Below the pieces are notes generated by a model. That model worked only from the letters and a program-made list of their open reading frames with translations. It was not told where the DNA came from and made no database searches. From assembly GCA_029288725.1 (NCBI GenBank), contig JARIGS010000010.1, positions 23,947 through 87,946 on the forward strand: DNA of 64,000 bases, in the 5' to 3' direction. Below are positions 1-62,138 of this stretch, piece after piece; position 1 is the first letter of the stretch, and each line of letters opens with the position of its first letter. Position numbers and translations under genes: made by a program. The DNA comes from Candidatus Nomurabacteria bacterium (lineage in GTDB: Bacteria; Patescibacteriota; Minisyncoccia; Phycocordibacterales; UBA9973).

Positions 1-934
1 AATTTCTTTCGGGAAATACTGAGAGTTTATCCTTTAATATGCAGATCTGCTCATTGTATTTTTTTATATAAGACTCTACATCTTTTGTTCTAACCACAAA
101 AATGCCTTTGTGTTTAATAGGAGTACGACATTCTTTGCATTCGCATGGCTCTGCTTTAATAAAATCGGGGTAAAGTTTAGAAGAAAAGTCGCATATCTCT
201 ATATTATTTCTATGAGAAAATTTTAAGGTTGTCTCATCAATATCAACATTATATTTTTTACACTTATCATGTATATACCCCTTTATATTACCGTCGATGT
301 ATCTCGAATTAATTTTTTCATAATGAGTGGTATAGGTGGTTTGTCTAGGATCTCCTACTAAAATGATGTTGCTCTTTGATTTAAATAAAAGCTGAATAAA
401 TTCTAAATCACTACCAGCTAGATCTTGTACTTCATCAATAAAAACTGAATTGTACACATCTTCAATTCTACTTAGTACAGAGCCCTCACTAAGATTGTCT
501 GCTTTTACAACAAATTTTGATATAACATTTTGAATTATCTTATTACCTAAGAAGTAATGATTTAAGACATCTTCTTCTTTGATATATATATTATCTTTAA
601 TCTTTTTCTCTTCTACATATTTTCTATATTCCGAATCCGGAAAGAAACCAATCTTTTTATATCTTAGACTATCGTTCATTACAGCTTTATATGGTCTGAC
701 GCCATTCTTCAACAAGAAAGTAAACCACTCTTCAACTAAAATATTTTCGGGTATGGAGTATGAACCGTTTTCTTTTTTATTTTTTTCTCTAATCTTTTTC
801 CTTATTTCCTCAGCATTAGACCTTGTGTAAGTTGTAATTAGAACTTTTTTATCTTTGAGTAAAAATGCTTGGCTTACTAGATAAGTCGTCTTCCCAGCAC
901 CAGCAGCGGCTATAACTAATGTATCTTTTGCCAT
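1..934 (-). CDS. gajB: UvrD/PcrA-like SF1 helicase, N-terminal part (gene continues beyond window start); GajB-like partner of the adjacent OLD-family ATPase
   Basis: Own translation of minus strand from ATG at 932-934: MAKDTLVIAAAGAGKTTYLVSQAFLLKDKKVLITTYTRSNAEEIRKKIREK. This gives helicase motif I (GAGKT) and Ia. The start lies 3 nt after the stop of 938..2554. It is absent from the ORF track because there is no in-window stop. Confidence 0.7.
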   Translation of the reverse strand, partial: MAKDTLVIAAAGAGKTTYLVSQAFLLKDKKVLITTYTRSNAEEIRKKIREKNKKENGSYSIPENILVEEWFTFLLKNGVRPYKAVMNDSLRYKKIGFFPDSEYRKYVEEKKIKDNIYIKEEDVLNHYFLGNKIIQNVISKFVVKADNLSEGSVLSRIEDVYNSVFIDEVQDLAGSDLEFIQLLFKSKSNIILVGDPRQTTYTTHYEKINSRYIDGNIKGYIHDKCKKYNVDIDETTLKFSHRNNIEICDFSSKLYPDFIKAEPCECKECRTPIKHKGIFVVRTKDVESYIKKYNEQICILKDKLSVFPERN

Positions 935-937
935 ATT

Positions 938-2554
938 TTATGAAACAAAATTAATTGCCTCAGTTATATATTTAGGATATACAATCTTTTCCTTTGTGGT
1001 AAAAATAGCTAGTGCACACTCAGTTTTATTTGCTCTCATATAGGACAACAGATCATCTGGTGTTTTCTTATCTGTTCCAAATATCTTATTTAAAATCTCA
1101 AGACTGTTATAAGCTAAAAGTAATGGCTCCAGTGTATTATTATTGTAATCTTCCATACTTCCTGTATATGGCGTATTTTCTTCAAAAAACACCTTGATAT
1201 CCTGTGTCTCTTTAGCCAACTCTTCCCTTAAAGTATTTCTGCTGTCTATATTGGAATCAACATCAATGACAAGAGCAATCTTCTTGTTCAGATGTTTTGC
1301 AATTTCTATGTATCTCTTATATGTATTATTAACAGAAATAACCTCAATTCCATTATTTATTGGCAATACTCCATCATGTGTATCCATATAAGCTCTTTGT
1401 ACAACAAGCTCATCAGCATCACCTTCAACTAAGATTGCTTTATTGCACAGTACAATTCTCAGGGTATCGTATCCTGGTAATTTTTTAAAAAAGTCTTTCA
1501 CGTCTTCTTTTAAGTCATTGAAGGCTACTGGTTCCTCATTGCCCAATAAAATTATATGATCAAGGCCCAATTTATTTGCTACGAAACTACTGTGCGAAGT
1601 AACCAAGATTTGCTTTCCTGTGCACTCATTCTCTATCTCGTTAATAAGAACATTCAGGTTAGTATGTGAGAGGTGGTTTTCTGGTTCTTCTATCAGTACA
1701 ACTGTTGAGCCCTGTGCTTTAGGTCCTGATACGGCAAAAATAGTTTTTATTATTGACTGTCTACCTTTACCAATATAACTAAAGGGTATTTTTTTGAAAT
1801 ATATTGAAAGATGCGCATCCCAAGAATTTTTAGCTGAAGGATCAACGGAAACCGTTATGTCTTTATCTTTTATACTATCCGACAACTTGTCATGCACTTG
1901 ATGTTTACTAAATTCATCCTTGAGCTTTCTATGGGCTTGAGCAGCAAGGAGTTTGTCACTTGAAGCAAGGTCTGACTTAATTTTTTTAGCAATCATTAGT
2001 TCTGAAGTGTCCTGGAAATTTGAACTAGTATCGACCATTACAGTTTTTATTGGAAGGGTTAATCTTACTTGTGAGTTGCCAGAAAATTGTGTTAATTCAA
2101 TATCGTAAAGTTCTAAAGGTAATGACTCTAGTAGGCTTGGATTATTTAAGAGCTCGGTGTAATTACTCCTACACTCTTCATCCATGGCAATCTGAAAATA
2201 AAATCCTTTTGCGGTTTTTGACAACAGGTAATTATTCGAACCCTTTAGGTTATCGGGGGCGTCGTCTGATAAAAAAACCTCAATCCTTATTATTGGTGGA
2301 TCAATCTTTTCTCCATCCTTAACCTTTGTTAAATATTCATTAACAATATCGGTATTGAAAAGAAACTGGTTAATTTTTTCCTTAGTTAAATAAATACCGT
2401 TAATGTAACCTGACAAAACGAGATTGACTGCCTCTAATACTGTTGTCTTTTTGGTTTCATTATCTCCGACAATAATATTAATACCGGAGTTCATATTAAG
2501 GTCTAGACTTTTATATCCCTTAAAGTTTTCAATATGGATCTTTGAAATATGCAT
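938..2554 (-). CDS. gajA: OLD-family ATP-dependent endonuclease (N-terminal AAA_15/21-type ATPase plus C-terminal Toprim); GajA-like
   Basis: N-terminus IHIENFKGYKSLDLNMNSGINIIVGDNETKKTTVLEAV (P-loop). C-terminus ILVEGDADELVVQ ... ALVIDVDSN (Toprim E/DxD). 538 aa, immediately followed by a UvrD-like helicase, the class-2 OLD/Gabija arrangement. Confidence 0.75.
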   Translation of the reverse strand: MHISKIHIENFKGYKSLDLNMNSGINIIVGDNETKKTTVLEAVNLVLSGYINGIYLTKEKINQFLFNTDIVNEYLTKVKDGEKIDPPIIRIEVFLSDDAPDNLKGSNNYLLSKTAKGFYFQIAMDEECRSNYTELLNNPSLLESLPLELYDIELTQFSGNSQVRLTLPIKTVMVDTSSNFQDTSELMIAKKIKSDLASSDKLLAAQAHRKLKDEFSKHQVHDKLSDSIKDKDITVSVDPSAKNSWDAHLSIYFKKIPFSYIGKGRQSIIKTIFAVSGPKAQGSTVVLIEEPENHLSHTNLNVLINEIENECTGKQILVTSHSSFVANKLGLDHIILLGNEEPVAFNDLKEDVKDFFKKLPGYDTLRIVLCNKAILVEGDADELVVQRAYMDTHDGVLPINNGIEVISVNNTYKRYIEIAKHLNKKIALVIDVDSNIDSRNTLREELAKETQDIKVFFEENTPYTGSMEDYNNNTLEPLLLAYNSLEILNKIFGTDKKTPDDLLSYMRANKTECALAIFTTKEKIVYPKYITEAINFVS

Positions 2555-2658
2555 GGCTGATTTGGGAATATTTAGCTGAAATCGTATACCTTATGGTATC
2601 ACAAGATCTTATGAATTGACGCTTTTGATTATTACAGGAAAATGGCTATATTAAGATA

Positions 2659-3360
2659 ATGATGATTGAGATAAGCAACAGGGTTTTTAAGACCAAAAAG
2701 AGTGCTGAGGAGTTTATTCAAGACATACTCTATAAATATCCCTTAAATCAAAGTTTGACCGGAGAGGATCTAGTTTTTGTATGTGGTATGCTTGAGCTTC
2801 ATCCTGATAAGGACGTGAAAATAGGGGTCGGGGTCAGCTCAATTATTATTGAGTCTGATACTGAATTCAATAAGACAAGACACTTTTCTGTAGTCAGAAC
2901 CGACGGTTCAATCGTCGATTTTAGTTTTAAGAAATGCTTGTCGCCAAACTTGAATGAGCCGATAAAATTGTTTCGCTCATGTGCTAGACGTGCCATTGCA
3001 AACCAGTGCTTGTCTTTCAGAGATGAATTCTTTCATAAAGAGCAGAACCTAGATACAAAAGTTCCATGTGCGATCACAGGGGTTTTGATTGATAAAAATA
3101 ATTGTCATGTTGATCACATCCACCCCGAAACATTCGATAAGATCATATTAGATTTTATTGCTGCAAATAATATTAATGTTTCCGAGATTAAATTCATCGA
3201 AGCTCAAAATGGCATAGGTAGAGTATTTGCAGATGATACTTTAAAGGATAGTTTTTCTAAATATCACAAAAGTGTTGCTAAACTACAGGTCGTATCGCCT
3301 GTGGCTAATTTAAAGCAGAAAAAAAGTAAAAACGTAGCATACAAAAACAGCTCAAAATGA
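2659..3360 (+). CDS. HNH-like nuclease-motif protein (paralog 1), unknown N-terminal domain; stand-alone copy of the RT-coupled protein at 14900..15568
   Basis: 233 aa; CAITGVLIDKNNCHVDHIHPETFDKI matches HNH core HxDHIxP. ~70% identical to 14900..15568. Own promoter TTGATT-16-TATATT (~2624-2651); terminator hairpin at the 3' end. Confidence 0.6.
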   Translation: MMIEISNRVFKTKKSAEEFIQDILYKYPLNQSLTGEDLVFVCGMLELHPDKDVKIGVGVSSIIIESDTEFNKTRHFSVVRTDGSIVDFSFKKCLSPNLNEPIKLFRSCARRAIANQCLSFRDEFFHKEQNLDTKVPCAITGVLIDKNNCHVDHIHPETFDKIILDFIAANNINVSEIKFIEAQNGIGRVFADDTLKDSFSKYHKSVAKLQVVSPVANLKQKKSKNVAYKNSSK

Positions 3361-3369
3361 GCTGTTTTT
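3342..3369 (+). terminator. Rho-independent terminator (ACAGCTC-AAAAT-GAGCTGT + T5) overlapping the stop of 2659..3360
   Basis: Perfect 7-bp stem, 5-nt loop, T-run 3365-3369. Confidence 0.7.
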
Positions 3370-3400
3370 GTATGCTACTCGTGCTAGCACGAGACGGTGA
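3369..3400. repeat. 32-nt direct repeat copy A (TGTATGCTACTCGTGCTAGCACGAGACGGTGA). Candidate att/boundary repeat containing the 16-nt perfect palindrome CTCGTGCTAGCACGAG.
   Basis: 30/32 identical to 16515..16546. It is followed by a decayed copy of the tRNA-Glu 3' half (GAGATAGAACC vs GGGAATCGAACC). Confidence 0.6.
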
Positions 3401-3496
3401 GCCTTCTCGAGATAGAACCTTTCGGTTCATTGCCCCATAAGCTCCGTTTTTAATACTTTGATAAAAAATACCGACCCTTCTCGTGCGTAGCAAAAT

Positions 3497-3534
3497 AGTG
3501 ACAAAAGTGACACAGGGTCGAGTATAAAGTGACA
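3497..3534. promoter_or_regulatory. Three direct repeats of (A)AAGTGACA at 3497, 3506 and 3528; possible arm-type or regulator binding sites near the island end
   Basis: atAGTGACAaaAGTGACAca...aaAGTGACAgt read directly. Confidence 0.25.
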
Positions 3535-3724
3535 GTCGTGTGTCCTTATTTCATAAGAGAGTGAGACATCCTGAGACAGGGAAAAACATTTTTCAATTCA
3601 TGAAGAACTTGATCCTATTCTTGAACTTATAGCTAATGAGCAGCGAAAAATTGAAGGGATGCGGGAGTAAACTTGAAAAAATTTCACACAAACCGACCTA
3701 TACGATAGGCGGTTTTTTTGATAT

Positions 3725-3758
3725 AAAAAAGCCTAAACAGTTTTACTGTTTAGGCCTT
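3725..3758 (-). terminator. Terminator for the minus operon 4035..5657 / 3777..4019 (AGCCTAAACAGT/ACTGTTTAGGC stem flanked by A/T runs)
   Basis: 11-bp perfect stem, T-run on minus strand. Confidence 0.65.
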
Positions 3759-3776
3759 GGATATTAGTTTAATGGC

Positions 3777-4019: not shown

Positions 4020-4034
4020 AACGTTTGAATTTGT

Positions 4035-5657
4035 TTAAAGAAATCTTTTGGAAAGCCTGTGTTTGGATGGGAGCTTGCGGATTGCTTCCGCAGCCGCCTG
4101 TGCAAGCTCTGGATCATCTTTTTCTGGAACCATAGCGTTGTGAAGCGTGGTTTGACAGAAACAATAATCCAAAATGAAAGAGCTGCTACCTGCAACACGG
4201 TGATCTATTGCTAAAGAATTTAAAGCAGCTATTGCGACATGGTGATAGTTATCCGCTCCAAAGTGAGCCTCTGAGTGAGTGATGATGCCGGTATCGTTCC
4301 AGTGGTCATTGATAGTATCTAACGCTAGACAATGATAGTACGTGTACAGGCAGTCTTTCTTCTTTTGCAGAAAATGCTCAGGGTCATTCAAAACATCATT
4401 CAGCAAGCTATTGCTCGGCCCAAGTAACATGTCGGATGCGGTGTTGATCTTAAAAATTTTATCAATACCTGAAGGAAACTTCTCGCCTGATCCTTCTTCA
4501 AAAAGAAGATCAAACTCACCGCTATCTACAAAGGCTTCAACGATCTTTACCAGGTCTGTAATTGGCTGTAAAAGAACTTCCATCTTTTTAGAGCGAACCA
4601 TATAACCATTAAATATATCAGTAATATGCTGAACGCCCTGCTCAAGCTGCAATGGGGCACTCCCTATCACGCTCAACCCTGGCAACACATCTCTGTATTT
4701 GGAAATTTTTCGAACAATTTCCTCCATATCCCATTCTTGCGAAAGGATACCCCAGTTGAGTGAATTGGAATCAATAATTACCCATCTTCCGTCCCTCACC
4801 TGTATGACAGGGCAAACGTGAAATGAGTGCATCATATCATCCAGATCTCCAATCCTTATTCCTGCTTCAAGGCTATCCATAAACTCTGGATCAGGAAATG
4901 TGATGGAGCGTGCTTCAATGTCTTTTTTAATTTCAGAAGCTTTCTTTTGCCTGAGATCATCCAAAACATCCCGAGCAGTTTTGTTAGGAAGCATGACTAC
5001 CGTTTTAGCTCCTACCATCTCTGCAAATGCCAGTATCATTTGTGTTTTGCCCTGACAGTTTGCACGGTTGTCACTTTTGTTCCATTTCCCATACCCTAGG
5101 GGAAAAACGCTATCGAAGCCGTATCGGCTATTTCTTATTTCGATCTTACGTCTAAATTCAGCAAAAAGCTCTTTAGACGATATGGTCGTTTTTTCGCGTT
5201 GATCCTCGGTATGGAACAGATAGTACAGTTTTTTCGTAAGCTCAACCTGTTCGTCGGCGGTTGCAGATTTCCATTCTTTGGCAATCTGTTTTGCCTCGTC
5301 TGGCAAATTTTTCTTTGCAGCAGTAACGAGAGCCTTTCCTAACCCTCCGATCATTGCCCTCATCTCAATCCCATGACCATATTTAGAATGGGTATTAGAA
5401 GATTCAATAAGTGCCTGTTTTTCAGGATAAGAGTTTAGCAGCACACCAGATACTAAGTGCCCGGCTCGCAGCATTTTACCTTCATCGGTATGCTCAGGGT
5501 ATTTCTCAAAAAGCAGTTTCTGGTTTTTGAGCAAAGAAGTGTAGATTTTTGACCTCTTGAATGAGGTAAGATTTACTCCACACCCTTGTGTGAGCGCAAA
5601 ATCAAATAGTTCTTTAATATTCATGTTAATGTGCTTTTGGTTAAAATTTTTACTCAT
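4035..5657 (-). CDS. 540-aa protein with transglutaminase-like (papain-fold) Cys-His-Asp core
   Basis: NCQGKTQMILAFAEM (Cys) ... MMHSFHVCPVIQVRDGRWVIIDSNS (H..W..D pattern), with C-H-D spacing typical of transglutaminase-like cysteine peptidases. Confidence 0.45.
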   Translation of the reverse strand: MSKNFNQKHINMNIKELFDFALTQGCGVNLTSFKRSKIYTSLLKNQKLLFEKYPEHTDEGKMLRAGHLVSGVLLNSYPEKQALIESSNTHSKYGHGIEMRAMIGGLGKALVTAAKKNLPDEAKQIAKEWKSATADEQVELTKKLYYLFHTEDQREKTTISSKELFAEFRRKIEIRNSRYGFDSVFPLGYGKWNKSDNRANCQGKTQMILAFAEMVGAKTVVMLPNKTARDVLDDLRQKKASEIKKDIEARSITFPDPEFMDSLEAGIRIGDLDDMMHSFHVCPVIQVRDGRWVIIDSNSLNWGILSQEWDMEEIVRKISKYRDVLPGLSVIGSAPLQLEQGVQHITDIFNGYMVRSKKMEVLLQPITDLVKIVEAFVDSGEFDLLFEEGSGEKFPSGIDKIFKINTASDMLLGPSNSLLNDVLNDPEHFLQKKKDCLYTYYHCLALDTINDHWNDTGIITHSEAHFGADNYHHVAIAALNSLAIDHRVAGSSSFILDYCFCQTTLHNAMVPEKDDPELAQAAAEAIRKLPSKHRLSKRFL

Positions 5658-5873
5658 ATTACAATTAATATTTGACTATGTCAATATCATTATACAAAGC
5701 AACCAAAGGGTATTTACATTAACGCGGCTACAAAAAAAATGGCACCGCTCGGGATGAGGGTGCCATTTTACTTTTAGTTAATTTCGCCAGTTCACGACTA
5801 GCCTGGAACTTTTTTATTGACACATTGCTTATTAATGATATGGTATTTACATCGTTCATTTAAACAACCCAAT

Positions 5874-6326: not shown

Positions 6327-6404
6327 ATTGGCCACACACATTTTTACAAATCGCTCCTCGGAGCGGTTTTTTCATTTTACCATTGATCTTGCTATGATTA
6401 TGGA

Positions 6405-6764: not shown

Positions 6765-6915
6765 AACCACAACCGAATATTACAGGTGTTGCCCCGCACG
6801 ATAGTGCCATGCTCGCTTCGTAGAGAAAGCCCAGAAAATTAGGAATAGTTTTTTGAGTCTTCATCGCGAAGCGAGCTTTCTTGTTCTAATTACAAAAATT
6901 AAACAAGCAACTATC

Positions 6916-8193
6916 ATGAACAACATCATATGGCATACGGAAGTACGCCAAGTATCTAGTCTCCACTCATGGAGTGAAAACCCCCGCAAGCTCTCAAAAA
7001 GTGCGTTTGCAAAGTTAGTCGGGCGCATTCAGGAGCGCGGATTTCATTCAGTACTAGTGATTGATACCGATGACACCATCCTCTCTGGCAATCAGCGAAA
7101 GACCGCATTGGAGCATCTTAAGATTGAAGAAGTCACTGTATTGATACCAAACCGAAAGCTCTCAGAGGAAGAGCGGAAGAAGATCGCCCTTGAAAGCAAT
7201 CTTAACGATGGGGAATGGAATTACGAGATGCTCAAGTCCTTCGATATCGATCTTGTTACCGACATCGGCTTCGACATGTCCGAGCTTTCAAAGTTTTGGG
7301 ACAAGGATCTAGAAGTAACAGAAGAAGAATTCGACGAGGAAAAGGAAATTAAGAAGATAAAAGTTCCCGTAACTGAGTTCGGAGATCTCATTATCATGGG
7401 CGGTCATAAGCTGCTCTGCGGAGACTCGACTGATCCAGAAGCGGTAAAGAAACTGTTCGGAAACGACAAGGCGGCGGTCATCTACAGTGATGCAATTTTT
7501 AACATTGGCTTGAGCTATGACGGCGGCGTGGGCAACAAATCTAGTTACGGCGGTACGGTTGACGACAACAAGTCAGCTGAGGAATATAAAGAATTTATCA
7601 AGAAAACGATTGTGAATGCACTGTCTGTCTCAAAGGATGATGTTCACTGCTTCCAATGGTGCGATGAGGCCTGGATCTGGGTTTTTCAAACCATATACAA
7701 CGAGCTCGGTATCAAGAACCGACGAGTGAATGTATGGTTGAAGAACAACGCATCGCCCGTGGCCCAAGTGGCATTTAACAAGGCACTTGAATTCTGCGTC
7801 TATGGCACGAAGGGATCTCCATTTCTGTCTCCATTATACACCAATCTTAACGAGATCATGAATCCAGAACTCGGAACAGGAAACGATCTCTATGAGCAAG
7901 TGACAAATGTCTGGGCGCACAAGCGTCTGCCAAGCAATCAGCTCGAACATCCAACGAGCAAGCCGCCAGAACTTCACAAGAAGGCACTGCTCCGCTGTTC
8001 AAAGCCAGGAGACATCATCTTCGACTCCTTCTCGGGATCGGCGAGTACAATGATCTGCGCAGAACAGTTGAAACGAAAAGTATATTCCTTGGATATAGAA
8101 GGCGTCTTCTGTGACTTGGCCATTCGCCGTTACGAAAAGTTCACAGGAAAGAAAGCAGAAATAATCAAACACTTCTATGAAAAAGAATACTAA
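6916..8193 (+). CDS. ParB-like N-terminal nuclease domain fused to a beta-class DNA (N6-adenine/N4-cytosine) methyltransferase
   Basis: VLVIDTDDTILSGNQRKTALEHL (ParB box). HPTSKPPELHKKAL (motif IV) then IIFDSFSGSASTMI (motif I FxGxG). ATG at 6916; the ORF track starts earlier at a TTG. Confidence 0.75.
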   Translation: MNNIIWHTEVRQVSSLHSWSENPRKLSKSAFAKLVGRIQERGFHSVLVIDTDDTILSGNQRKTALEHLKIEEVTVLIPNRKLSEEERKKIALESNLNDGEWNYEMLKSFDIDLVTDIGFDMSELSKFWDKDLEVTEEEFDEEKEIKKIKVPVTEFGDLIIMGGHKLLCGDSTDPEAVKKLFGNDKAAVIYSDAIFNIGLSYDGGVGNKSSYGGTVDDNKSAEEYKEFIKKTIVNALSVSKDDVHCFQWCDEAWIWVFQTIYNELGIKNRRVNVWLKNNASPVAQVAFNKALEFCVYGTKGSPFLSPLYTNLNEIMNPELGTGNDLYEQVTNVWAHKRLPSNQLEHPTSKPPELHKKALLRCSKPGDIIFDSFSGSASTMICAEQLKRKVYSLDIEGVFCDLAIRRYEKFTGKKAEIIKHFYEKEY

Positions 8194-8593
8194 GAAGAAC
8201 GAGTTCATTGATCAGCTCCGCAAGATTCCCATTGTCTTGGTCGCCTGCGAAAAGACATCGATTGCTCGCAACACGGTATACCGTTGGCGCAAGGAGGATG
8301 AATCGTTCGCAACGGCTATGGATGACGCGTTGCTCGAAGGCGAAGCACTGATCAATGACATGAGCGAGAGTCAACTGCTTACCATGATCAAGGAAAAAAA
8401 CTGGTCGGCGATCAGCTTCTGGCTTCGTCATCGCAATCCGAAGTTCAGAGACAAGGTTGAGATAACTCATTCCACGAAGGATAAGGAGCTTACCAACGAA
8501 CAAAAGGCATTGATTGAAAAAGCGCTACAACTCACTACCTTCTCGCAAGACAAGGCACTTGAAATATTATCAGGCACTACAAATGAAAAATAA
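8177..8593 (+). CDS. putative phage terminase small subunit (HTH)
   Basis: SIARNTVYRWRKEDESFATAMDDAL HTH typical of TerS N-termini; overlaps the MTase gene end and the TerL gene start. Confidence 0.5.
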   Translation: MKKNTKKNEFIDQLRKIPIVLVACEKTSIARNTVYRWRKEDESFATAMDDALLEGEALINDMSESQLLTMIKEKNWSAISFWLRHRNPKFRDKVEITHSTKDKELTNEQKALIEKALQLTTFSQDKALEILSGTTNEK

Positions 8594-10109
8594 ATATATG
8601 AATATATTAAATAACAAGGAGCTGATCGAAACTATTATCAAGGATCGTGAGGTGCGCCGCGCACTGACCAAGGAGAGCCATGAGTATTTCTTCCCCGTAT
8701 ATTTTGGGGAGTATATAAAATATCCCAGTGCGCCCCTTCATACGGAAATGATCAAGATCACGGAAAACACTGACGAGCAGTTGTCGGTGGTGGTGGCATT
8801 TCGTGGTTCTGCAAAATCCACAATCTTCTCTTTGTCATATCCCATCTGGGCGATATTGGGAAAGCAACAAAAGAAGTTCGTGCTCATAGTGTCCCAGACA
8901 CAGGTGCAGGCTCGGCAACTCCTCACCAACATCAAAGAAGAGTTGACGAACAATCACCTGCTGAAGAGCGACCTCGGACCATTTGAAGAGCCAGACGACG
9001 AATGGCGTGCGGCTTCCATTGTGCTTCCGCAGTACGGTGCCCGTATCATGGTCGCATCAAGCGAGCAAAGCATTCGTGGCATACGCCATAAAAGCTATCG
9101 TCCAGATCTCATCATTCTCGACGACATCGAGGACATTGCCTCCTCCAAGACAAAAGAGGGTCGCGACAAGACGTTTCGATGGCTTGCAAGCGAGGTGCTT
9201 CCTGCGGGAGATGTCACAACGAAAGTCATTCTTATTGGAAACCTTGTTCATGAGGATTCAGTCATCATGCGTCTTCGGCAAAAGATTAAGCTTAAGGAAA
9301 TCAAAGGAAGCTTCTCTATGTATCCGATCATGGATGAGCAGGGAGTGAGCTTGTGGCCCGGGAAATTCCCGACACCAGAATCGTTGAAAAACGAGGAGAC
9401 GAAAGTGCTCAATCCGCAGGCATGGTTTCGCGAGTATCTGCTTAAAATCATTCCCGAGGAAGGACAGGTAGTCTTTCCAGAATGGTTTCAATATTACGAC
9501 ACCTTGCCAACCAAACATCAGCGCGCCTACCGTTGCACGTATTCGGCGGTTGACTTGGCAATATCTCAGAAAGACAGTGCTGACTATACGACTGTTGTCA
9601 CGGCATATGTCTATGGGCGTGCGGACAAGATTCGCATATACATTCTGCCAAACCCAATCAACAAAAAGCTGTCATTTCCTGCACAAGTGGAAATGCTGAA
9701 AGGTCATGCAGCGATTGCTTTGCCGAATTCTTCCGACAAGCTTTTTGTTGAAAGCGTCGCATACCAAGACGCACTGCCGCAAATGCTCAAAACCCAAGGG
9801 GTGCATGCGATTGGCGTAAAGCCGCAAAATGACAAGCGCACACGCCTTGCACTGACGACTTCCTATATTCAATCGGGACGAGTGAAATTCCCCCAGAAAG
9901 GGTGCGAAGATCTCATTCAGCAACTGGTCGGTTTCGGTATTGAAAACCACGATGACCTTGCTGATGCATTTTCGTTGCTCATTCTGCAGATTGCGGAGCG
10001 ACATCTTAATGAGTCGACATGGATGATATGCTTCCTTGGTGGGTCAAGCTACGATAAGAACGGGACTATTTATTATGATGACTATATTGACGTGGAAACA
10101 GGAAAATAA
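8583..10109 (+). CDS. phage terminase large subunit (ATPase + RNaseH-like nuclease)
   Basis: Walker A AFRGSAKST, Walker B LIILDDIEDI, nuclease region SAVDLAISQKDSADYTTVV. ATG 8583 chosen (overlaps the TerS stop by 11 nt); alternative upstream start 8514. Confidence 0.8.
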   Translation: MKNKYMNILNNKELIETIIKDREVRRALTKESHEYFFPVYFGEYIKYPSAPLHTEMIKITENTDEQLSVVVAFRGSAKSTIFSLSYPIWAILGKQQKKFVLIVSQTQVQARQLLTNIKEELTNNHLLKSDLGPFEEPDDEWRAASIVLPQYGARIMVASSEQSIRGIRHKSYRPDLIILDDIEDIASSKTKEGRDKTFRWLASEVLPAGDVTTKVILIGNLVHEDSVIMRLRQKIKLKEIKGSFSMYPIMDEQGVSLWPGKFPTPESLKNEETKVLNPQAWFREYLLKIIPEEGQVVFPEWFQYYDTLPTKHQRAYRCTYSAVDLAISQKDSADYTTVVTAYVYGRADKIRIYILPNPINKKLSFPAQVEMLKGHAAIALPNSSDKLFVESVAYQDALPQMLKTQGVHAIGVKPQNDKRTRLALTTSYIQSGRVKFPQKGCEDLIQQLVGFGIENHDDLADAFSLLILQIAERHLNESTWMICFLGGSSYDKNGTIYYDDYIDVETGK

Positions 10110-10129
10110 TTCCGTTAATAATTGGCAAA

Positions 10130-10968: not shown

Positions 10969-11115
10969 TTTCTCTAGCGGGATTTAAATATGAGAGAAGC
11001 CCAGATATAACAAAAGGCTCCTCGCCATTGCGATGACCTTTCGGCCACCCATACCCGTTTCCAGATACGACCCGCTAGAGTGACTCTGACGAGGAGTCCT
11101 TTGTTCTCTAGCGGG
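10969..11115 (-). promoter_or_regulatory. Structured 5' leader of 10130..10966 with three copies of a 10-mer (CTCTAGCGGG 10972-10981, its reverse complement 11071-11080, CTCTAGCGGG 11106-11115)
   Basis: Read directly. The proximal copy sits 5 nt from the start codon, and the middle copy can pair with either outer copy. Confidence 0.35.
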
Positions 11116-11231
11116 AGTTTCGACCATATCCTTTGTTTCCAAGGGGGTTAGGCCTCTATTAAATTGTTACCTGACTATAATACAGTAAATACTGCATTAC
11201 TTCCACACCTTATCGCAGTTCAGTTGATTTG

Positions 11232-12351: not shown

Positions 12352-13671
12352 ATGGAAACGACAGCTATCGGCAAGATTCCGAGCAACATATCCATTTCGG
12401 AGACGAGGGTCAGATACTGCCTGTATGCCCGAAAATCGACCGAGTCGGACGAGCAGCAGGCACTGTCCATAGACTCGCAGATCAAGGAGATGACGGATAT
12501 TGCGGAGCGACTAAAACTCAACGTGGTCATGGTGAAGCGAGAGTCACATTCCGCAAAGGAGTCTGGACAGCGACCAGTGTTCAAGGAATTGCTGGAAGAA
12601 ATCAGAGACGGAAAATGCGACGGTATTCTCACATGGGCACCAGACCGACTGAGCAGAAATGCTGGCGATCTTGGAACCGTTGTCGATCTCATGGATCAAA
12701 AGAGGCTGATTCACATTCAGACGTACGGACAGACATTTTCCAATTCACCAAATGAGAAATTTCTGCTGATGATATTATGTTCACAAGCGAAGCTTGAGAA
12801 TGACAATAAAAGCATCAACGTGAAGCGTGGGCTTCGGGCAAGAGTCGAGATGGGACTCTGGCCGTGCAGACCGCCGACTGGATATACAAAATACAAGCGT
12901 ATTGATCAGAAGTGCGAGTCAGTGATTGATCCAGTGCGAGCGCCAGTTATCAAGCAGATGTTTGAGAAAATTGCATATGACGGCTGGAGCGGAAGAAAGC
13001 TGTACCATTGGCTGAAGGACGACATCAAGTTCAGGACGGAAAACAACATGCCATTGAGTCTCGGCAATCTCTACAAGATTCTGGAGAACCATTTCTATTA
13101 CGGACGATTCGAGTTCCCGAAGCAGTCTGGCAACTGGTACAACGGCGCGCATGAGCCGATCATTACGAAAGACCTGTTTGACCTTGTTCAGGAAAGGATA
13201 AAGAGTCAGATACTTCAGCCACGGTCAGAGCAAAAGGAGTTTGCCTTCACCAAGATCATGACCTGCGGACTGTGCGGCTCTGGCATCACTGCAGACGAGA
13301 AGTTCAAGAAGCAGAAGAACGGCAACGTCCACCGCTATGTCTATTACAAGTGCACCCGTGTCAAGGATTCGCAGTGTCCCAGCGGATACATCAACGAAGA
13401 AGAACTCGTTACCCAGTTGCAGGATCTGATGGACGACGTTGAGATACAGACGGTGCCAATGCGGGAGAAGATAACGGCGGAGGTACACCGCTTCAAGAAG
13501 TTTGAGCAAATGCTACTGGGAACAAAGACGACAGTGTCGGTGAAGGATATCGATATCCGCAACTATGCCAAGTTCATTCTGCTTGAGGGAACAATGGACG
13601 AGAAGCGAGAGTTTCTAAGGTGTTTGAAGAGCGAGATCGTGTTGAATAACAAAAGGGTTTCATTAAAATAA
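12352..13671 (+). CDS. large serine recombinase (resolvase/invertase catalytic domain + recombinase domain + zinc ribbon)
   Basis: YARKSTESDEQQALSIDSQ (catalytic Ser), DRLSRN, GLWPCRPPTGYT, CGLCG...YYKC. Confidence 0.85.
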   Translation: METTAIGKIPSNISISETRVRYCLYARKSTESDEQQALSIDSQIKEMTDIAERLKLNVVMVKRESHSAKESGQRPVFKELLEEIRDGKCDGILTWAPDRLSRNAGDLGTVVDLMDQKRLIHIQTYGQTFSNSPNEKFLLMILCSQAKLENDNKSINVKRGLRARVEMGLWPCRPPTGYTKYKRIDQKCESVIDPVRAPVIKQMFEKIAYDGWSGRKLYHWLKDDIKFRTENNMPLSLGNLYKILENHFYYGRFEFPKQSGNWYNGAHEPIITKDLFDLVQERIKSQILQPRSEQKEFAFTKIMTCGLCGSGITADEKFKKQKNGNVHRYVYYKCTRVKDSQCPSGYINEEELVTQLQDLMDDVEIQTVPMREKITAEVHRFKKFEQMLLGTKTTVSVKDIDIRNYAKFILLEGTMDEKREFLRCLKSEIVLNNKRVSLK

Positions 13672-13688
13672 TGTGGTATAATAGAAGC

Positions 13689-13895
13689 CACTTGTAAATT
13701 GAAAAGCCACCCATTTTTTTATCTTTTTATAAAAAAGATTTCAAAGATAAAATGTCCCGATCATGACGGCACTGAGCTGGCTACCGCCTTAACAGTACAG
13801 TCGGAATCGTATCATTGATTTCTTTGTCCTTTGAGAGATTAGTCCTTAGAGAGGTAGGTAGTCCGCTATCAACAATGACAGTTTTACAAGTAGTT
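13689..13895 (+). ncRNA. candidate retron non-coding RNA (msr-msd) upstream of the RT
   Basis: Extended -10 TGgTATAAT at 13674-13682 predicts a TSS near 13689. Inverted repeat ACTTGTAAA (13690-13698) / TTTACAAGT (13883-13891) resembles a1/a2. Internal hairpins ATCTTTTT-ATA-AAAAAGAT (13721-13739) and GGGGTGG-N12-CCACCCC (13897-13922). Boundaries are approximate. Confidence 0.35.
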
Positions 13896-14010
13896 CGGGG
13901 TGGTTTTGTTATTGTCCACCCCACAGTTAGTGTATGGAATTATTCGTAATTGCATTACTGCTTATTTTCCTCACAATTCGTGAGTCGAATAAGTAAGGGC
14001 TAAGACCTCA

Positions 14011-14907
14011 GTGGATAATGAAAAATTATATTCCTCAAAGAAATACCTCCTAACGCTCCTTGGAATAAAGGAAAACTTTCTGTACCCCAATTTCTCACAA
14101 AAATACAAAGAAAAGAATATCCCCAAAAAGAATGGCGGCATTCGAAAAATTAAACCACCGCAATTTAACCTCAAGAAACTCCAAAAGGTTGTCCTTGAAA
14201 AAATACTCCGTATACATCCTCAGTTGCCATGCGTGTACGGTTTATCAAAGGATAGGAACATCACCAGTAATGCAAAACTTCACCGGAAAAATTTTGATAA
14301 CCAGTTAGTCGTTTTGGACATTGAAAACTTTTTTCCAAGCATAACAAAAAAGCAAATAGTTCAAGTATTTAAGAAAATCGGTTTCAATAAAGAAAATTCT
14401 TTGATACTTGCGAAAATTTGCACCGTTGATGATTGCTTACCCCAAGGCGCACCAACCAGTCCGTACCTCGCTTCTCTCGTTTGCATTAAACTGGATAAAG
14501 AAATATACCAATACTGTAAAAAACATAATTTTGAATACACAAGATATTTTGATGACATTAGTGTCTCAGGGAAAAACATACTGCCCAAACATATTAAAGA
14601 TATAGAAAACGCTATCCGTAAACACGGTTTTACCTGTAACGCAGAGAAGAAGAATTTTTATGACACAGGTAAGGATAAGATTATAAATGGTGTACTAATT
14701 ACTGAAAATGGGCTATCAGTAACAAGTTCTTACAAAAAGGAAATTGAAGATATTTATAATGCATTAATCAATAGTCGGACTATTGAAAACAAAAGGTCAT
14801 TTTCGGGCAAGTTTGGATTTTATTTACACATAAACAGGAAAGAAGCCGTTGCTTTTTTAGAAGGAATGAAAAAAGGAATAACCTCGCTAGCGTATAACCA
14901 TGATTGA
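14011..14907 (+). CDS. retron-type reverse transcriptase
   Basis: VLDIENFFPSITKKQIVQVF, LPQGAPTSPYLASLVCIKLD and YTRYFDDISVS align closely with Ec86 RT blocks NIDLEDFFPSL / LPQGAPSSPKLANLIC / YTRYADDLTLS. ~298 aa; no maturase or X domain. Confidence 0.85.
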   Translation: MDNEKLYSSKKYLLTLLGIKENFLYPNFSQKYKEKNIPKKNGGIRKIKPPQFNLKKLQKVVLEKILRIHPQLPCVYGLSKDRNITSNAKLHRKNFDNQLVVLDIENFFPSITKKQIVQVFKKIGFNKENSLILAKICTVDDCLPQGAPTSPYLASLVCIKLDKEIYQYCKKHNFEYTRYFDDISVSGKNILPKHIKDIENAIRKHGFTCNAEKKNFYDTGKDKIINGVLITENGLSVTSSYKKEIEDIYNALINSRTIENKRSFSGKFGFYLHINRKEAVAFLEGMKKGITSLAYNHD

Positions 14908-15568
14908 AATAGATAGCAAGATTTTCAAAACCAAAAAGGATACCGAGGATTTTATTCGTACGATACTTTACAAGTACCCCCTAAATGAGCCACTGATCGG
15001 AGAAGACTTGGCTTTTGTCTCTAGCCTGCTTGAACTTCACCCCGACAAGGACACGAAAATAGGAGCTGGAGTCAGCTCAATCATCACTGAAGCCGACAGC
15101 GAGTTCAATAAAACCAGACATTTTTCTATTGTTAGAGTGGACGGTACGATCGTCGATTTTAGTTTTAAAAAATGTTTGTCACCAGTACCGAATGAACCTA
15201 TCAAATTGTTCCGATCTTGTGCAAGGCGTGCAGTTGCAGATCAAGCTCTGTCTTTCAGGGACAAGTTTTTTCTTGAGAATCAGAATTCCGATGGAAATGT
15301 CGCATGTGCGCTTACTGGTGTTTTGATTAATAAAAATAATTCACACATTGATCATATCGCCCCAGCTACGTTCGACAAGATTGTTTTGGATTTTATTGCT
15401 ATAAACAACATTGATGTAAGTAAGGTCAAATTTATTGAATCGCTAAACGGGATAGGTAGAGTATTTGCTGATAACAATTTAAAAGATACCTTTTCTACAT
15501 ATCACAAAAATGTTGCCATGCTACAGGTCGTATCGCCTGTGGCCAATTTAAAGCAGAAAAAGAAGTAA
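14900..15568 (+). CDS. HNH-like nuclease-motif protein (paralog 2), translationally coupled to the RT (ATGATTGA overlap)
   Basis: CALTGVLINKNNSHIDHIAPATFDKIV (HxDHIxP). 8-nt overlap with the RT stop. ~70% identical to 2659..3360. Confidence 0.6.
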   Translation: MIEIDSKIFKTKKDTEDFIRTILYKYPLNEPLIGEDLAFVSSLLELHPDKDTKIGAGVSSIITEADSEFNKTRHFSIVRVDGTIVDFSFKKCLSPVPNEPIKLFRSCARRAVADQALSFRDKFFLENQNSDGNVACALTGVLINKNNSHIDHIAPATFDKIVLDFIAINNIDVSKVKFIESLNGIGRVFADNNLKDTFSTYHKNVAMLQVVSPVANLKQKKK

Positions 15569-16514: not shown

Positions 16515-16546
16515 ATGTATGCTTCTCGTGCTAGCACGAGATGGTG
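16515..16546. repeat. 32-nt direct repeat copy B (TGTATGCTTCTCGTGCTAGCACGAGATGGTGA), overlapping the last 6 nt of tRNA-Glu
   Basis: 30/32 identity to 3369..3400. Confidence 0.6.
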
Positions 16547-16615
16547 ACCCTACGGGGAATCGAACCCCGATTTAAGCCTTGAGAAGGCTCCGTCCTAACC
16601 GTTAGACGATAGGGC
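16541..16615 (-). tRNA. tRNA-Glu (anticodon CUC), CCA encoded
   Basis: Reverse complement GGCCCTATCGTCTAACGGTTAGGACGGAGCCTTCTCAAGGCTTAAATCGGGGTTCGATTCCCCGTAGGGTCACCA. 7-bp acceptor stem with one G-U, T-loop GGTTCGATTCC, anticodon loop TTCTCAA. Confidence 0.85.
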
Positions 16616-16659
16616 CAAGTGCTGCATAACTATAATGAACGATGGTGTATAATGCAAGC

Positions 16660-60842: not shown

Positions 60843-62138
<1,296 letters not shown>

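What the first reader, a model, noticed from the sequence alone, without database searches (positions are those of the whole stretch)
1..2554. Gabija-like anti-phage pair (OLD-family ATPase-Toprim + UvrD helicase) at the window edge
A 538-aa protein with an N-terminal ABC-type ATPase and C-terminal Toprim (ILVEGDADE…VIDVD) is followed 3 nt later by a UvrD-like helicase (motif I GAGKT). This is the class-2 OLD / GajA-GajB architecture. It lies in an AT-rich stretch adjacent to the other defence candidates.
Basis: partly seen in the sequence, partly recalled or inferred. Interest (0 to 1): 0.5.

Follow-up and report, generated by a model that had tools for sequence, protein, structure and literature searches.

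The report
Compact Gabija-type defence gene pair
The window edge carries a two-gene Gabija-type anti-phage module, a nuclease and a small helicase, on a mobile island next to a tRNA gene in what is probably a candidate-phyla-radiation bacterium; it is an ordinary member of a known, widespread defence family, with a few unusual sequence details.

Summary
A 538-aa OLD-family protein (ABC-type ATPase plus Toprim nuclease; 938..2554, minus strand) is followed after 3 nt by a UvrD-like SF1 helicase gene (934..1) that the window cuts at residue 311. The complete 398-aa helicase from the same source contig was recovered (P0121) and has motifs V and VI.

Both proteins match PADLOC Gabija models end to end (GajA E=2e-165; GajB E=1.6e-109). 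The pair is adjacent in every informative related locus examined, about 50 in genomes, metagenomes and viral contigs. The nuclease catalytic set of class 2 OLD enzymes is intact. The nearest solved fold is B. cereus GajA.

This is a compact, distant subfamily, about 15% identical to the studied B. cereus proteins:
- The helicase has no 2B accessory domain and carries a conserved four-residue Cys/His cluster.
- The closest GajA clade replaces the second glycine of Walker A with Lys, Arg or Glu.

The module is cargo at a tRNA-Glu(CTC) integration hotspot, associated with a serine recombinase. A DUF3223 gene beside it has a 75% identical paralogue next to a retron-like reverse transcriptase 12 kb away.

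Verdict: new member of a known kind, with modest interest.

The parts
938..2554 (-). gajA-like gene: 538-aa class 2 OLD-family protein with an N-terminal ABC-type ATPase, a helical insertion and a C-terminal Toprim nuclease with helical domain
   Evidence: ORF. PADLOC GajA PDLC00102 E=2e-165, residues 1-536 against model 1-531 of 532. Pfam AAA_15 and OLD-like_TOPRIM. AF2 model pLDDT 85.5. Top Foldseek PDB hit 8sm3_A GajA, E=1.1e-17.
2441..2467 (-). Deviant Walker A, G30-D-N-E-T-K35-K36-T-T: the Walker lysine K36 is kept, but the glycine before it is Lys
   Evidence: Sequence. K36 is invariant in the family. Position 35 is K, R or E in 19 of the 20 closest homologues and G in the other 100.
1673..1702 (-). 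Walker B region VVLIEEPENH (E289, E290, E292, H294)
   Evidence: Invariant columns in alignment A3 of 44 sequences.
1757..1771 (-). ABC signature-like motif G262-K-G264-R-Q266
   Evidence: G262, G264 and Q266 are invariant.
1592..1594 (-). H-loop histidine H321 (TSHS). By position and motif it corresponds to B. cereus GajA H320 (inference)
   Evidence: Invariant. H320A partly relieves ATP inhibition in B. cereus GajA (PMC8136825).
1256..1441 (-). Toprim core: E377 (VEG), D381/E382, D431-x-D433
   Evidence: Pfam PF20469 over residues 370-433. Invariant columns. Aligns to the VEGD and TDRD motifs of the Xanthomonas class 2 OLD C-terminal region. Same spacing as BpOLD E400, E404, D455, D457 (PMC6755086).
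1025..1135 (-). Helical-domain catalytic residues T474-x-E476 (NNNTLEP) and K510 (NKTEC)
   Evidence: E476 and K510 are invariant in all alignments; T474 is invariant in A3 and at least 90% conserved in A2 and A5. NTLEP aligns with NTLEPEL and STLEPEL of 6njv and 6nk8. Equivalent to BpOLD T506, E508 and K562.
935..937 (-). 3-nt spacer between the gajA stop and the gajB start, consistent with one operon and translational coupling
   Evidence: Sequence. In related loci the spacing ranges from an apparent overlap of 73 nt to a gap of 5 nt; most fall between -26 and +5, and the large overlaps reflect the first-start-codon rule of the ORF script.
1..934 (-). gajB-like gene, first 311 of 398 codons: compact UvrD-like SF1 helicase cut by the window edge just before motif V
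   Evidence: Translation. PADLOC GajB PDLC00148 E=1.2e-83. Complete product P0121 is 398 aa, 100% identical, and matches PDLC00148 end to end at 1.6e-109. AF2 model pLDDT 93.
884..910 (-). Helicase motif I (Walker A), AAAGAGKTT, residues 9-17
   Evidence: A9, A11, G12, K15 and T16 are invariant.
332..442 (-). Helicase motif II FIDEVQD (residues 165-171) and motif III VGDPRQTTY (residues 193-201)
   Evidence: D167, E168, Q170, D171, G194, D195, R197 and Q198 are invariant.
203..217 (-). Helicase motif IV, SHRNN (R242)
   Evidence: R242 is invariant.
128..262 (-). Conserved Cys cluster C225 ... C264-x-C266-x-x-C269: a putative metal site in domain 2A, near where UvrD carries domain 2B
   Evidence: 40/42, 41/42, 42/42 and 41/42 (C or H) among homologues at 45% identity or more. 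Absent from the Flavobacterium-type branch. Metal binding is inferred, not shown.
2555..2658 (.). 104-nt AT-rich divergent intergenic region between gajA and DUF3223 copy 1, presumed to hold the promoters
   Evidence: Sequence. Promoter-like hexamers are no more frequent than chance, so this is inference only.
2659..3360 (+). DUF3223 (HamC-like) gene, copy 1, divergent from gajA; possible accessory gene or independent effector
   Evidence: Pfam DUF3223 2.5e-19, PADLOC HamC2 6.8e-35. Same arrangement in L030, whose GajA is 81% identical. Absent from all other related loci. 75% identical to the copy at 14900..15568.
3369..3419 (+). Degenerate tRNA-Glu 3' remnant (3395-3419) plus a 26-nt flank hairpin (3369-3394): a former attachment-site junction marking the inner end of the Gabija-carrying segment
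   Evidence: 51-nt direct repeat of 16516-16566, which overlaps the 3' end of tRNA-Glu. The 26-mer occurs only at these two places in the window, against 0 expected by chance. In L033 and L028, tRNA-Glu(CTC) with a similar flank lies directly upstream of gajA.

Best explanation
This is a two-gene Gabija-type anti-phage module, meaning a class 2 OLD nuclease (GajA) with its UvrD-like partner (GajB). It belongs to a compact and widespread subfamily and is carried as cargo of an integrative element at a tRNA-Glu(CTC) hotspot.

**Shown here**
- gajA encodes an ABC-type ATPase fused to a Toprim nuclease. It has an intact two-metal catalytic set: E377, D381/E382, D431, D433, T474, E476 and K510.
- gajB, 3 nt downstream, encodes a 398-aa SF1 helicase with motifs I-VI and no 2B domain.
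- The two genes are adjacent in every informative related locus.

**Inferred by analogy with B. cereus and P. aeruginosa Gabija**
- GajA oligomerises through the helical insertion in its ATPase domain and binds GajB through the helicase 1B domain.
- The nuclease is held in check, either by nucleotide bound to the ABC domain or by host end-processing enzymes.
- On infection it nicks or cleaves phage DNA.
- GajB recognises the resulting DNA ends and hydrolyses (d)ATP and (d)GTP. The outcome is a block to phage replication or abortive infection.

The Lys in place of the Walker A glycine suggests that nucleotide sensing in this clade may differ in detail.
For: - **Family models.** PADLOC GajA PDLC00102 at 2e-165 and GajB PDLC00148 at 1.6e-109, both end to end. 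These models were built from the Gabija loci listed by Doron et al. (PMC8565338).
- **Domains.** Pfam AAA_15, OLD-like_TOPRIM and UvrD-helicase.
- **Conserved pairing.** 19 of 19 genome loci, 5 further loci and 26 viral loci keep the GajA-like gene followed directly by a 337-449-aa helicase.
- **Catalytic and ABC motifs.** Invariant or nearly so across 44 homologues.
- **C-terminal profile.** It hits only the class 2 OLD structures 6njv and 6nk8.
- **Fold.** The AF2 model's best PDB match is B. cereus GajA, 8sm3_A, E=1.1e-17, TM 0.54. The helicase model matches UvrD, PcrA and GajB at 1e-13 to 1e-11.
- **Mobile context.** Low GC. An 81-83% identical serine recombinase flanks gajB in L030 and L033. 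tRNA-Glu(CTC) lies directly upstream of gajA in L033 and L028, and a tRNA-Glu remnant sits beside the module in the window. Relatives occur on IMG/VR contigs.
Against: - There is no experimental evidence for any member of this compact subfamily. I found none in the searched literature, and that search is not exhaustive.
- Foldseek sequence identity to B. cereus GajA and GajB is only about 14-15%.
- HMMER, with a single sequence or a family profile, does not reach B. cereus GajA at E<=1e-3. It hits PtuA, retron ATPases and class 1 TsOLD through the ATPase head.
- The helicase profile scores UvrD, PcrA and AddA (about 1e-11) slightly better than GajB (5e-9).
- The helicase lacks the roughly 100-residue C-terminal accessory (2B) subdomain of B. 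cereus GajB. The family profile skips UvrD residues 311-546; GajB subdomain boundaries are from PMC10681800.
- The Walker A glycine is replaced, so NTP regulation may not transfer.
- Complex formation and anti-phage activity could not be tested.
Confidence: 0.8

Rival explanations
1. A three-gene system: the DUF3223 (HamC-like, possibly HNH-like) protein encoded divergently from gajA is a functional third component. This would be analogous to Hachiman type II, where a DUF3223 gene accompanies a nuclease-helicase pair.
For: - The DUF3223-gajA-gajB arrangement recurs in L030, at 72%, 81% and 74% protein identity. The linkage has therefore survived substantial divergence.
- DUF3223 accompanies 3.8% of Hachiman systems (PMC8565338).
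- The C-terminal half has a weak HNH-like match to PtuB, E=0.0022.
Against: - It is absent from all the other roughly 50 related loci. These include the close relatives L028, L031, L033 and L034, where tRNA-Glu or other genes directly precede gajA.
- A 75% identical paralogue follows a retron-like RT in the same window. DUF3223 therefore looks like a floating effector or a backbone gene of this element family.
- Searches for further DUF3223 contexts gave nothing informative.
Confidence: 0.12
2. The pair is a degenerate or repurposed relic. The Walker A Gly-to-Lys change has destroyed nucleotide binding, so the system is inactive or no longer regulated.
For: - The P-loop glycine before the Walker lysine is normally strongly conserved (general knowledge).
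- The window protein has GDNETKKT.
Against: - The substitution is clade-wide: K, R or E in 19 of the 20 closest homologues, spanning 51-81% identity.
- K36, Walker B E289/E290, the signature G262/G264/Q266, H321 and all nuclease residues stay invariant, which indicates purifying selection.
- Both ORFs are intact. The full-length helicase keeps motifs V and VI.
Confidence: 0.06
3. A different OLD- or ABC-ATPase system (class 1 stand-alone OLD, retron-associated class 3 OLD, Septu PtuA or PARIS AriA) that merely happens to lie next to a helicase gene, or a housekeeping UvrD/PcrA fragment.
For: - Sequence searches against PDB find PtuA, retron Ec83 ATPase, TsOLD and AriA before GajA.
- A retron-like RT exists in the window at 14011..14907.
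Against: - Those hits cover mainly the N-terminal 50 residues of the ATPase head. PADLOC PtuA hits are 1e-18 or weaker and cover only the N-terminal 60-80 residues, against 2e-165 end to end for GajA.
- There is no HNH PtuB or AriB partner.
- The RT is 11.5 kb away and has its own overlapping DUF3223 gene.
- The helicase adjacency is universal.
- NCBIfam uvrD, pcrA and rep scores are far below their cut-offs.
Confidence: 0.02

Closest known systems
Bacillus cereus VD045 Gabija (GajA 578 aa, GajB 494 aa; PDB 8SM3, 8U7I, 8J4T, 8TK0)
   Same: - Gene order gajA then gajB.
- GajA is an ABC ATPase with a helical insertion plus a Toprim nuclease.
- The Toprim Glu, DxD, a helical-domain acidic residue and a Lys are conserved. 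B. cereus E379, D511 and K541 are essential; the window protein has E377, E476 and K510.
- An H-loop His is present (H320 in B. cereus, H321 here).
- GajB is an SF1 UvrD-like protein with a Walker A and a DExQD box.
- B. cereus GajA is the best solved-fold match for the nuclease.
   Different: - About 15% identity, and HMMER does not link the GajA proteins.
- GajA is 40 aa shorter.
- GajB is 96 aa shorter and has nothing at the place of the Cacc/2B subdomain, residues 314-416 of B. cereus GajB.
- The helicase carries a conserved Cys cluster.
- Walker A reads GxNxxKK[ST] rather than GxxxxGK[ST].
Class 2 OLD nucleases of Burkholderia pseudomallei and Xanthomonas campestris (PDB 6NK8, 6NJV)
   Same: - These are the only PDB sequences matched by the C-terminal profile.
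- The metal-A and metal-B ligand pattern is identical: E, E/D at +4, DxD, TxE and a Lys.
- They are encoded in tandem with a UvrD-like helicase, which is the defining context.
   Different: - The helical domain is shorter here. The E-to-K spacing is 34 residues against 54, and DxD-to-TxE is 43 against 51.
- In the AF2 secondary structure no helix is predicted between Toprim alpha3 and beta4, where BpOLD and XccOLD have the 'Insert 3' helix.
- BpOLD hydrolyses ATP and cuts non-specifically, while B. cereus GajA does not hydrolyse ATP. Which behaviour applies here is unknown.
Thermus scotoductus class 1 OLD (PDB 6P74)
   Same: Similar length (528 aa) and overall fold: Foldseek E=2.6e-15, TM 0.48-0.50. 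The sequence profile also matches both its ATPase and Toprim parts.
   Different: Class 1 OLD genes stand alone. Here a helicase gene is always attached.
UvrD / PcrA / Rep (SF1A helicases)
   Same: Motifs I-VI are present. They are the best fold matches for the helicase: 4c30 at 3e-13 with TMq 0.65.
   Different: - About 320 residues shorter.
- No 2B domain: the family profile jumps from UvrD residue 311 to 546.
- Not a housekeeping equivalog.
Hachiman type II (HamA, HamB and the DUF3223 protein HamC)
   Same: A DUF3223 gene sits beside a nuclease-helicase defence pair.
   Different: No HamA or HamB match was found among the first-16-kb ORFs scanned against PADLOC. Here the DUF3223 gene accompanies Gabija-like genes, and a retron-like RT elsewhere in the window.

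Membership tests
Gabija / class 2 OLD system | OLD-family protein: N-terminal ABC-type ATPase plus C-terminal Toprim domain | tested here: met
   Pfam AAA_15, AAA_23 and OLD-like_TOPRIM. The AF2 model matches GajA, TsOLD and retron-Eco8 OLD folds.
Gabija / class 2 OLD system | [quoted passage not shown] | tested here: met
   3-nt spacing in the window. Adjacency is kept in all informative related loci. Definition from PMC10568477.
Gabija / class 2 OLD system | Match to profile models built from the original Gabija loci | tested here: met
   GajA PDLC00102 at 2e-165 and GajB PDLC00148 at 1.6e-109, both end to end. Origin of the models: PMC8565338.
Gabija / class 2 OLD system | Two-metal Toprim catalytic set (Glu, Glu/Asp at +4, DxD, TxE, Lys) | tested here: met
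   E377, E382, D431, D433, E476 and K510 are invariant in every alignment; D381 and T474 are invariant in A3 and at least 90% conserved in the others. They align to the 6njv and 6nk8 motifs. Reference residues from PMC6755086.
Gabija / class 2 OLD system | Canonical ABC nucleotide-binding motifs (Walker A GxxxxGK[ST], Walker B, signature, H-loop) | tested here: inconclusive
   Walker Lys, Walker B EE, the signature and the H-loop are all invariant. The Walker A glycine is Lys here, and K, R or E in 19 of the 20 closest relatives. The effect on nucleotide binding is unknown.
Gabija / class 2 OLD system | Detectable homology to an experimentally characterised GajA | tested here: met
   At fold level, 8sm3_A is the top hit, E=1.1e-17. 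At sequence level, only the BpOLD and XccOLD class 2 C-terminal regions are reached. B. cereus GajA is not reached by HMMER.
Gabija / class 2 OLD system | Helical dimerisation insertion inside the ATPase domain (a feature of the B. cereus archetype and of TsOLD) | tested here: inconclusive
   The AF2 model predicts three helices (181-195, 198-209, 219-226) between strands 171-175 and 233-237, at lower confidence of 67-81. No oligomer modelling was possible.
Gabija / class 2 OLD system | GajB with four subdomains 1A, 1B, 2A and 2B (a feature of the B. cereus archetype, not part of the family definition) | tested here: not met
   Only about 68 residues lie between motif IV (R242) and motif V (about residue 311). 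The family profile skips UvrD residues 311-546. B. cereus GajB has a 103-residue Cacc subdomain, residues 314-416. PADLOC GajB models of 365-369 positions show that short forms are inside the operational family.
Gabija / class 2 OLD system | 4:4 GajA:GajB complex; NTP-inhibited DNA nicking; anti-phage protection | not testable with these tools
   Needs biochemistry, cryo-EM and phage assays.
Class 1 OLD (stand-alone) | Single gene with no associated helicase | tested here: not met
   The helicase gene is 3 nt downstream and universally linked.
Class 3 OLD (retron I-B effector) | OLD gene adjacent to a retron RT and ncRNA | tested here: not met
   The only RT is at 14011..14907, 11.5 kb away, with its own overlapping DUF3223 gene. 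None of the close loci has an RT next to gajA.
Septu (PtuA/PtuB) and PARIS (AriA/AriB) | ABC ATPase without Toprim, paired with an HNH (PtuB) or Toprim (AriB) partner | tested here: not met
   PADLOC PtuA hits cover only the N-terminal 60-80 residues, at 1e-18 or weaker. The partner gene is a helicase.
Housekeeping UvrD / PcrA / Rep | Score above the NCBIfam equivalog cut-off; protein of about 650-750 aa with a 2B domain | tested here: not met
   33, 29, 25 and 24 bits against cut-offs of 965, 1144, 911 and 951. Full length is 398 aa.

The most novel reading that the evidence does not exclude
The clade containing this locus may be a mechanistically distinct compact Gabija. Three features define it: a GxNxxKK[ST] Walker A in GajA, a 2B-less GajB carrying a Cys4-type metal site, and occasional linkage to a DUF3223/HNH-like gene. 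The nuclease might be gated by something other than bulk NTP level, for example a metal- or redox-sensitive helicase module or the DUF3223 partner. That could be an adaptation to candidate-phyla-radiation hosts, which are generally thought to rely on scavenged nucleotides (general knowledge, not tested here).
Probability: 0.1. Interest if true: 0.55.

Novelty: new member of a known kind. Interest (0 to 1): 0.3.

Why it matters

This locus belongs to a large, compact and very distant branch, with thousands of database relatives and none found to be characterised. That branch shows which parts of the archetype are dispensable and which are universal:
- **Dispensable:** the helicase 2B domain, part of the Toprim helical domain, and the canonical P-loop glycine.
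- **Universal:** the nuclease two-metal set, the ABC motifs, helicase motifs I-VI and the 1B domain.

It also documents a Gabija-type module in a probable Patescibacteria genome, riding a small serine-recombinase element at a tRNA-Glu hotspot. For annotation, the result is routine: existing PADLOC models already match both proteins end to end.

Tried and rejected
- **Recovering the source contig beyond position 1.** Exact-product look-ups for GajA, P0001, DUF3223, the 540-aa protein and P0121 all returned 'not on record'. The genome-contig scan did not contain the source genome. The complete helicase was recovered only as a protein (P0121).
- **Single-sequence phmmer against PDB.** It gave no GajA or GajB hits. 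The full-length GajA family profile also failed to reach B. cereus GajA. Homology had to be shown through the C-terminal profile and a fold search.
- **DUF3223 as a regular partner of this Gabija family.** Rejected as a general rule, because only the window and L030 have it. Metagenome scans for further DUF3223 contexts found nothing, or only three distant and uninformative loci.
- **Promoter and terminator scan.** Promoter-like sites in the region are no more frequent than chance, 20 found against 15.8 expected, so they were not used as evidence.
- **Rfam scan of 1-17.2 kb.** It found no retron ncRNA or other element tied to the Gabija genes.
- **Rival assignments.** Class 1 or class 3 OLD, Septu, PARIS and a housekeeping uvrD fragment were all considered and rejected; see the membership table.
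- **Exact history of the composite island.** I could not settle whether 3420-16515 is one element or two.


Full report
**Observation**

The 538-aa ORF at 938..2554 on the minus strand is real. Its TAA stop occupies 940-938. Three bases follow, and an ATG at 934 opens a frame that reaches the window edge after 311 codons. GC is 0.32-0.36 over the first 4 kb, against about 0.43-0.50 over most of the window.

**Domains and family models**

Pfam finds AAA_15, AAA_23 and SMC_N-type ABC ATPase signatures and OLD-like_TOPRIM (residues 370-433) in the first protein. It finds UvrD-helicase and AAA_19 in the second.

Against PADLOC, the first protein matches GajA model PDLC00102 end to end (E=2e-165), and the fragment matches GajB model PDLC00148 (E=1.2e-83). 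NCBIfam equivalogs for uvrD, pcrA, rep and recB score 24-34 bits against cut-offs of about 700-1140. The helicase is therefore not a housekeeping gene fragment.

**Completing gajB**

Exact look-ups of the source contig failed. The protein database does hold P0121, which is 398 aa, 100% identical over all 311 residues, and on the same 169,748-bp NCBI contig as the GajA product P0001.
- The missing 87 residues carry motif V (FGDSKGLTFERVLIYP) and motif VI (YVAITRAR).
- P0121 matches PDLC00148 over its whole length (E=1.6e-109).
- The gene is intact in the genome; only the window cuts it.
- The source annotation starts GajA at Met21. The 20 upstream residues are conserved across the family, so 2554 is the real start.

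**Is the pairing more than chance?**

In 19 of 19 genome loci with a full-length GajA relative (35-45% identity), a 344-398-aa helicase homologous to the window fragment lies immediately downstream. The same holds in five loci that carry the closest relatives, at 54-81% identity. It also holds in 26 IMG/VR viral contigs. The GajA relatives at 26% identity or more that lack a helicase hit are cut off by a contig end or are themselves truncated. Spacing ranges from an apparent overlap of 73 nt to a gap of 5 nt. Most loci fall between -26 and +5, and the large overlaps come from the first-start-codon rule of the ORF script. This is a conserved two-gene operon.

**Nuclease anatomy**

Alignments of 22 and 44 homologues show the following residues invariant or nearly so.
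- **ATPase:** Walker Lys K36, Walker B E289/E290 (LIEEPENH), signature-like G262/G264/Q266 and H-loop H321.
- **Nuclease:** E377, D381/E382, D431, D433, T474, E476 and K510.

The nuclease set reproduces the two-metal machinery defined for the class 2 OLD enzyme of B. pseudomallei: E400, E404, D455, D457, T506, E508 and K562 (PMC6755086). By position and motif it also corresponds to the essential residues E379, D511 and K541 of B. cereus GajA (PMC8136825); that correspondence is inferred, because HMMER does not align the two proteins.

A profile of the C-terminal 200 residues finds only two sequences in the whole PDB at E<=10. Both are class 2 OLD C-terminal regions: 6njv at 1.4e-4 and 6nk8 at 2.8e-3. 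The alignment runs through VEGD, DxD and NTLEP.

An AlphaFold2 model (pLDDT 85.5) has B. cereus GajA as its best solved-structure match (8sm3_A, E=1.1e-17, TM 0.54). TsOLD and retron-Eco8 OLD follow.

By sequence alone, HMMER does not reach B. cereus GajA. It finds PtuA, retron ATPases and AriA through the ATPase domain, and class 1 TsOLD through both its ATPase and Toprim parts. The relationship to the archetype is therefore distant, with about 15% identity in the Foldseek alignment.

**Helicase anatomy**

Motifs I (AAAGAGKTT), Ia, II (FIDEVQD), III (VGDPRQTTY) and IV (SHRNN) lie in the window. Motifs V and VI are in P0121. The model (pLDDT 93) matches UvrD and PcrA (about 3e-13) and B. cereus GajB (8tk1_F at 1.9e-12, 8sm3_B at 5e-11) about equally. 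The sequence profile behaves the same way.

The family is uniformly short. The 120 best hits are 337-444 aa, and the PADLOC models are 365-369 positions long. The profile alignment jumps from UvrD residue 311 to 546 across only 25 profile positions. B. cereus GajB has a 103-residue C-terminal accessory subdomain, residues 314-416 (PMC10681800). I therefore infer that this helicase has no 2B domain. The 1B region, which makes the main GajA contacts in B. cereus (PMC10781630), is retained.

Near the place where UvrD carries 2B, the clade has a conserved C225 ... C264-x-C266-x-x-C/H269 set, present in 40-42 of 42 sequences. This may be a metal site; that is inference only.

**An unexplained detail**

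The Walker A reads GDNETKKT. The glycine before the Walker lysine is K, R or E in 19 of the 20 closest GajA homologues (51-81% identity), and G in the other 100 listed. All other ABC motifs stay invariant, so the change looks functional rather than degenerative. In B. cereus, nucleotide binding to this domain inhibits the nuclease. Regulation may therefore differ here, and I could not test it.

**Context**

The enolase at 60843..62132 is 77% identical to a protein labelled Candidatus Paceibacterota, and 67-69% identical to other Paceibacterota and Pacebacteria entries. Its exact copy lies on the same contig. The rest of the window beyond 17 kb is housekeeping. The host is probably a Patescibacteria (CPR) bacterium.

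The first 16.5 kb is a composite island ending at tRNA-Glu(CTC), 16542..16616. In order it contains:
- the Gabija pair;
- DUF3223 copy 1;
- a 540-aa protein with no family match;
- a DNA methylase whose N-terminal region looks ParB-like by eye (not profile-tested);
- a possible small terminase and a large terminase;
- a LOOT RNA;
- an APH-like kinase;
- a large serine recombinase;
- a retron-like RT overlapping DUF3223 copy 2, which is 75% identical to copy 1.

A 51-nt repeat links 3369-3419, just after DUF3223 copy 1, to 16516-16566, which covers the tRNA-Glu 3' end and its flank. In L033 and L028, tRNA-Glu(CTC) with a similar flank hairpin lies directly upstream of gajA. In L030 and L033, a serine recombinase 81-83% identical to the window's own lies directly after gajB.

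The simplest reading is as follows. The gajAB module, here with a DUF3223 gene, is cargo of a small serine-recombinase element family at the tRNA-Glu hotspot. In this genome a later insertion of about 13.1 kb (3420-16515) displaced it from the tRNA. I predict a recombinase gene just left of window position 1.

**DUF3223**

The gene is divergent from gajA, 104 nt away. The same arrangement occurs in L030, but in none of the other related loci. PADLOC knows the family as HamC, an occasional third gene of Hachiman. It may be an accessory gene, an independent effector, or a backbone gene of the element family. Further searches were uninformative.

**Mechanism**

- **Shown:** an intact OLD-type nuclease gene and an intact compact SF1 helicase gene in a conserved operon on mobile DNA.
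- **Inferred from B. cereus**: GajA oligomerises and binds GajB. The nuclease is restrained by nucleotide binding. Infection releases nicking or cleavage. GajB senses DNA ends and hydrolyses purine (d)NTPs.
- **Inferred from P. aeruginosa**: Gabija acts on linear DNA ends that are not protected by RecBCD, and blocks genome circularisation.

Which of these applies to a 2B-less, Walker-A-deviant clade in a CPR host is unknown.

**Novelty and verdict**

Under the operational definitions, this is a Gabija / class 2 OLD system: an OLD gene in tandem with a UvrD-like helicase gene, matching PADLOC models built from the original loci.

The subfamily is abundant. There are 4996 GajA-like proteins at E<=1e-3 and 1556 helicases at E<=1e-10. 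Its members also occur on viral contigs. The locus is therefore a new member of a known kind.

The compact architecture, the deviant P-loop clade, the Cys cluster and the CPR host add some interest, because I found no characterised member of this branch in the literature searched. Nothing points to a new kind of system. Interest is 0.3.

Noticed in passing
window 14011..15568 (+), with upstream intergenic region 13672..14010: A retron-like reverse transcriptase (298 aa; PADLOC RT_III-A at 8.9e-69, RT_II-A at 5e-67) overlaps by 8 nt a second DUF3223 gene (222 aa) that is 75% identical to the one beside gajA. It is probably a retron with a DUF3223 effector. No ncRNA was identified: Rfam found nothing in the 340-nt upstream gap.
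   Followed up: partly
window 3369..3419 and 16516..16566; L033 1563..1637; L028 4257..4330: A 51-nt direct repeat consists of a degenerate tRNA-Glu 3' end and a near-identical 26-nt hairpin flank. In two related genomes, tRNA-Glu(CTC) sits directly upstream of gajA. This points to a tRNA-Glu integration hotspot with tandem or composite elements. Whether 3420-16515 is one element or two is unresolved.
   Followed up: partly
window 12352..13671 (+); L033 4580..5905; L030 7701..9014; L031 5769..7211: The window's large serine recombinase is 83%, 81% and 77% identical to the recombinases that lie next to gajB in the closest related loci. Here it is 9.8 kb from gajA, on the other side. A second copy may lie just beyond window position 1.
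   Followed up: partly
window 2441..2467 (-), GajA residues 30-38: Walker A is GDNETKKT. The conserved glycine before the Walker lysine is K, R or E in 19 of the 20 closest homologues and G in 100 more distant ones. This is a clade-specific deviant P-loop with all other ABC motifs intact. Its functional meaning is unknown.
   Followed up: partly
window 128..262 (-), GajB residues 225-269: A conserved C...CxCxxC/H cluster is present in 40-42 of 42 homologues, in helicase domain 2A near where UvrD carries domain 2B. It may be a Zn or Fe-S site. It is absent from the Flavobacterium-type branch of the family.
   Followed up: partly
window 11032..11154 (-): A LOOT RNA (Rfam RF03000) scores 82.5 bits against a gathering score of 46.4, E=1.4e-14, full length. 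It lies between a glucodextranase-B-like ORF and an APH-like kinase inside the island.
   Followed up: no
window 6853..10109 (+): A phage-like block. It holds a 446-aa N6/N4 DNA methylase (the N-terminal part looks ParB-like by eye and was not profile-tested), an HTH protein that may be a small terminase (weak Pfam hit below the cut-off), and a 531-aa large terminase (Terminase_6C). No other structural genes were recognised, so it may be a satellite or a prophage remnant.
   Followed up: no
window 4035..5657 (-): A 540-aa ORF between the tRNA remnant and the methylase has no hit in Pfam, NCBIfam or PADLOC, and no relative in any fetched locus.
   Followed up: partly
window 60843..62132 (-) and the whole window beyond 17 kb: Housekeeping genes (gatB, GAPDH, enolase, iPGM, CtpA-like protease). 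The enolase's best named relatives are Candidatus Paceibacterota at 77% and 67-69% identity. The window therefore probably comes from a Patescibacteria (CPR) MAG, on a 169,748-bp contig.
   Followed up: partly
window 2495..2554 (-): The public annotation of the source genome (P0001, 518 aa) starts the GajA gene at Met21 and drops a conserved N-terminal strand (MHISKIHIENFKGYKSLDLN). The 538-aa start at 2554 is supported by all homologues.
   Followed up: yes
window 3334..3378: A perfect 20-bp hairpin (GTAGCATACAAAAACAGCTCA...TGAGCTGTTTTTGTATGCTAC) spans the stop codon of DUF3223 copy 1 and runs into the att-like repeat. It looks like a bidirectional terminator.
   Followed up: no
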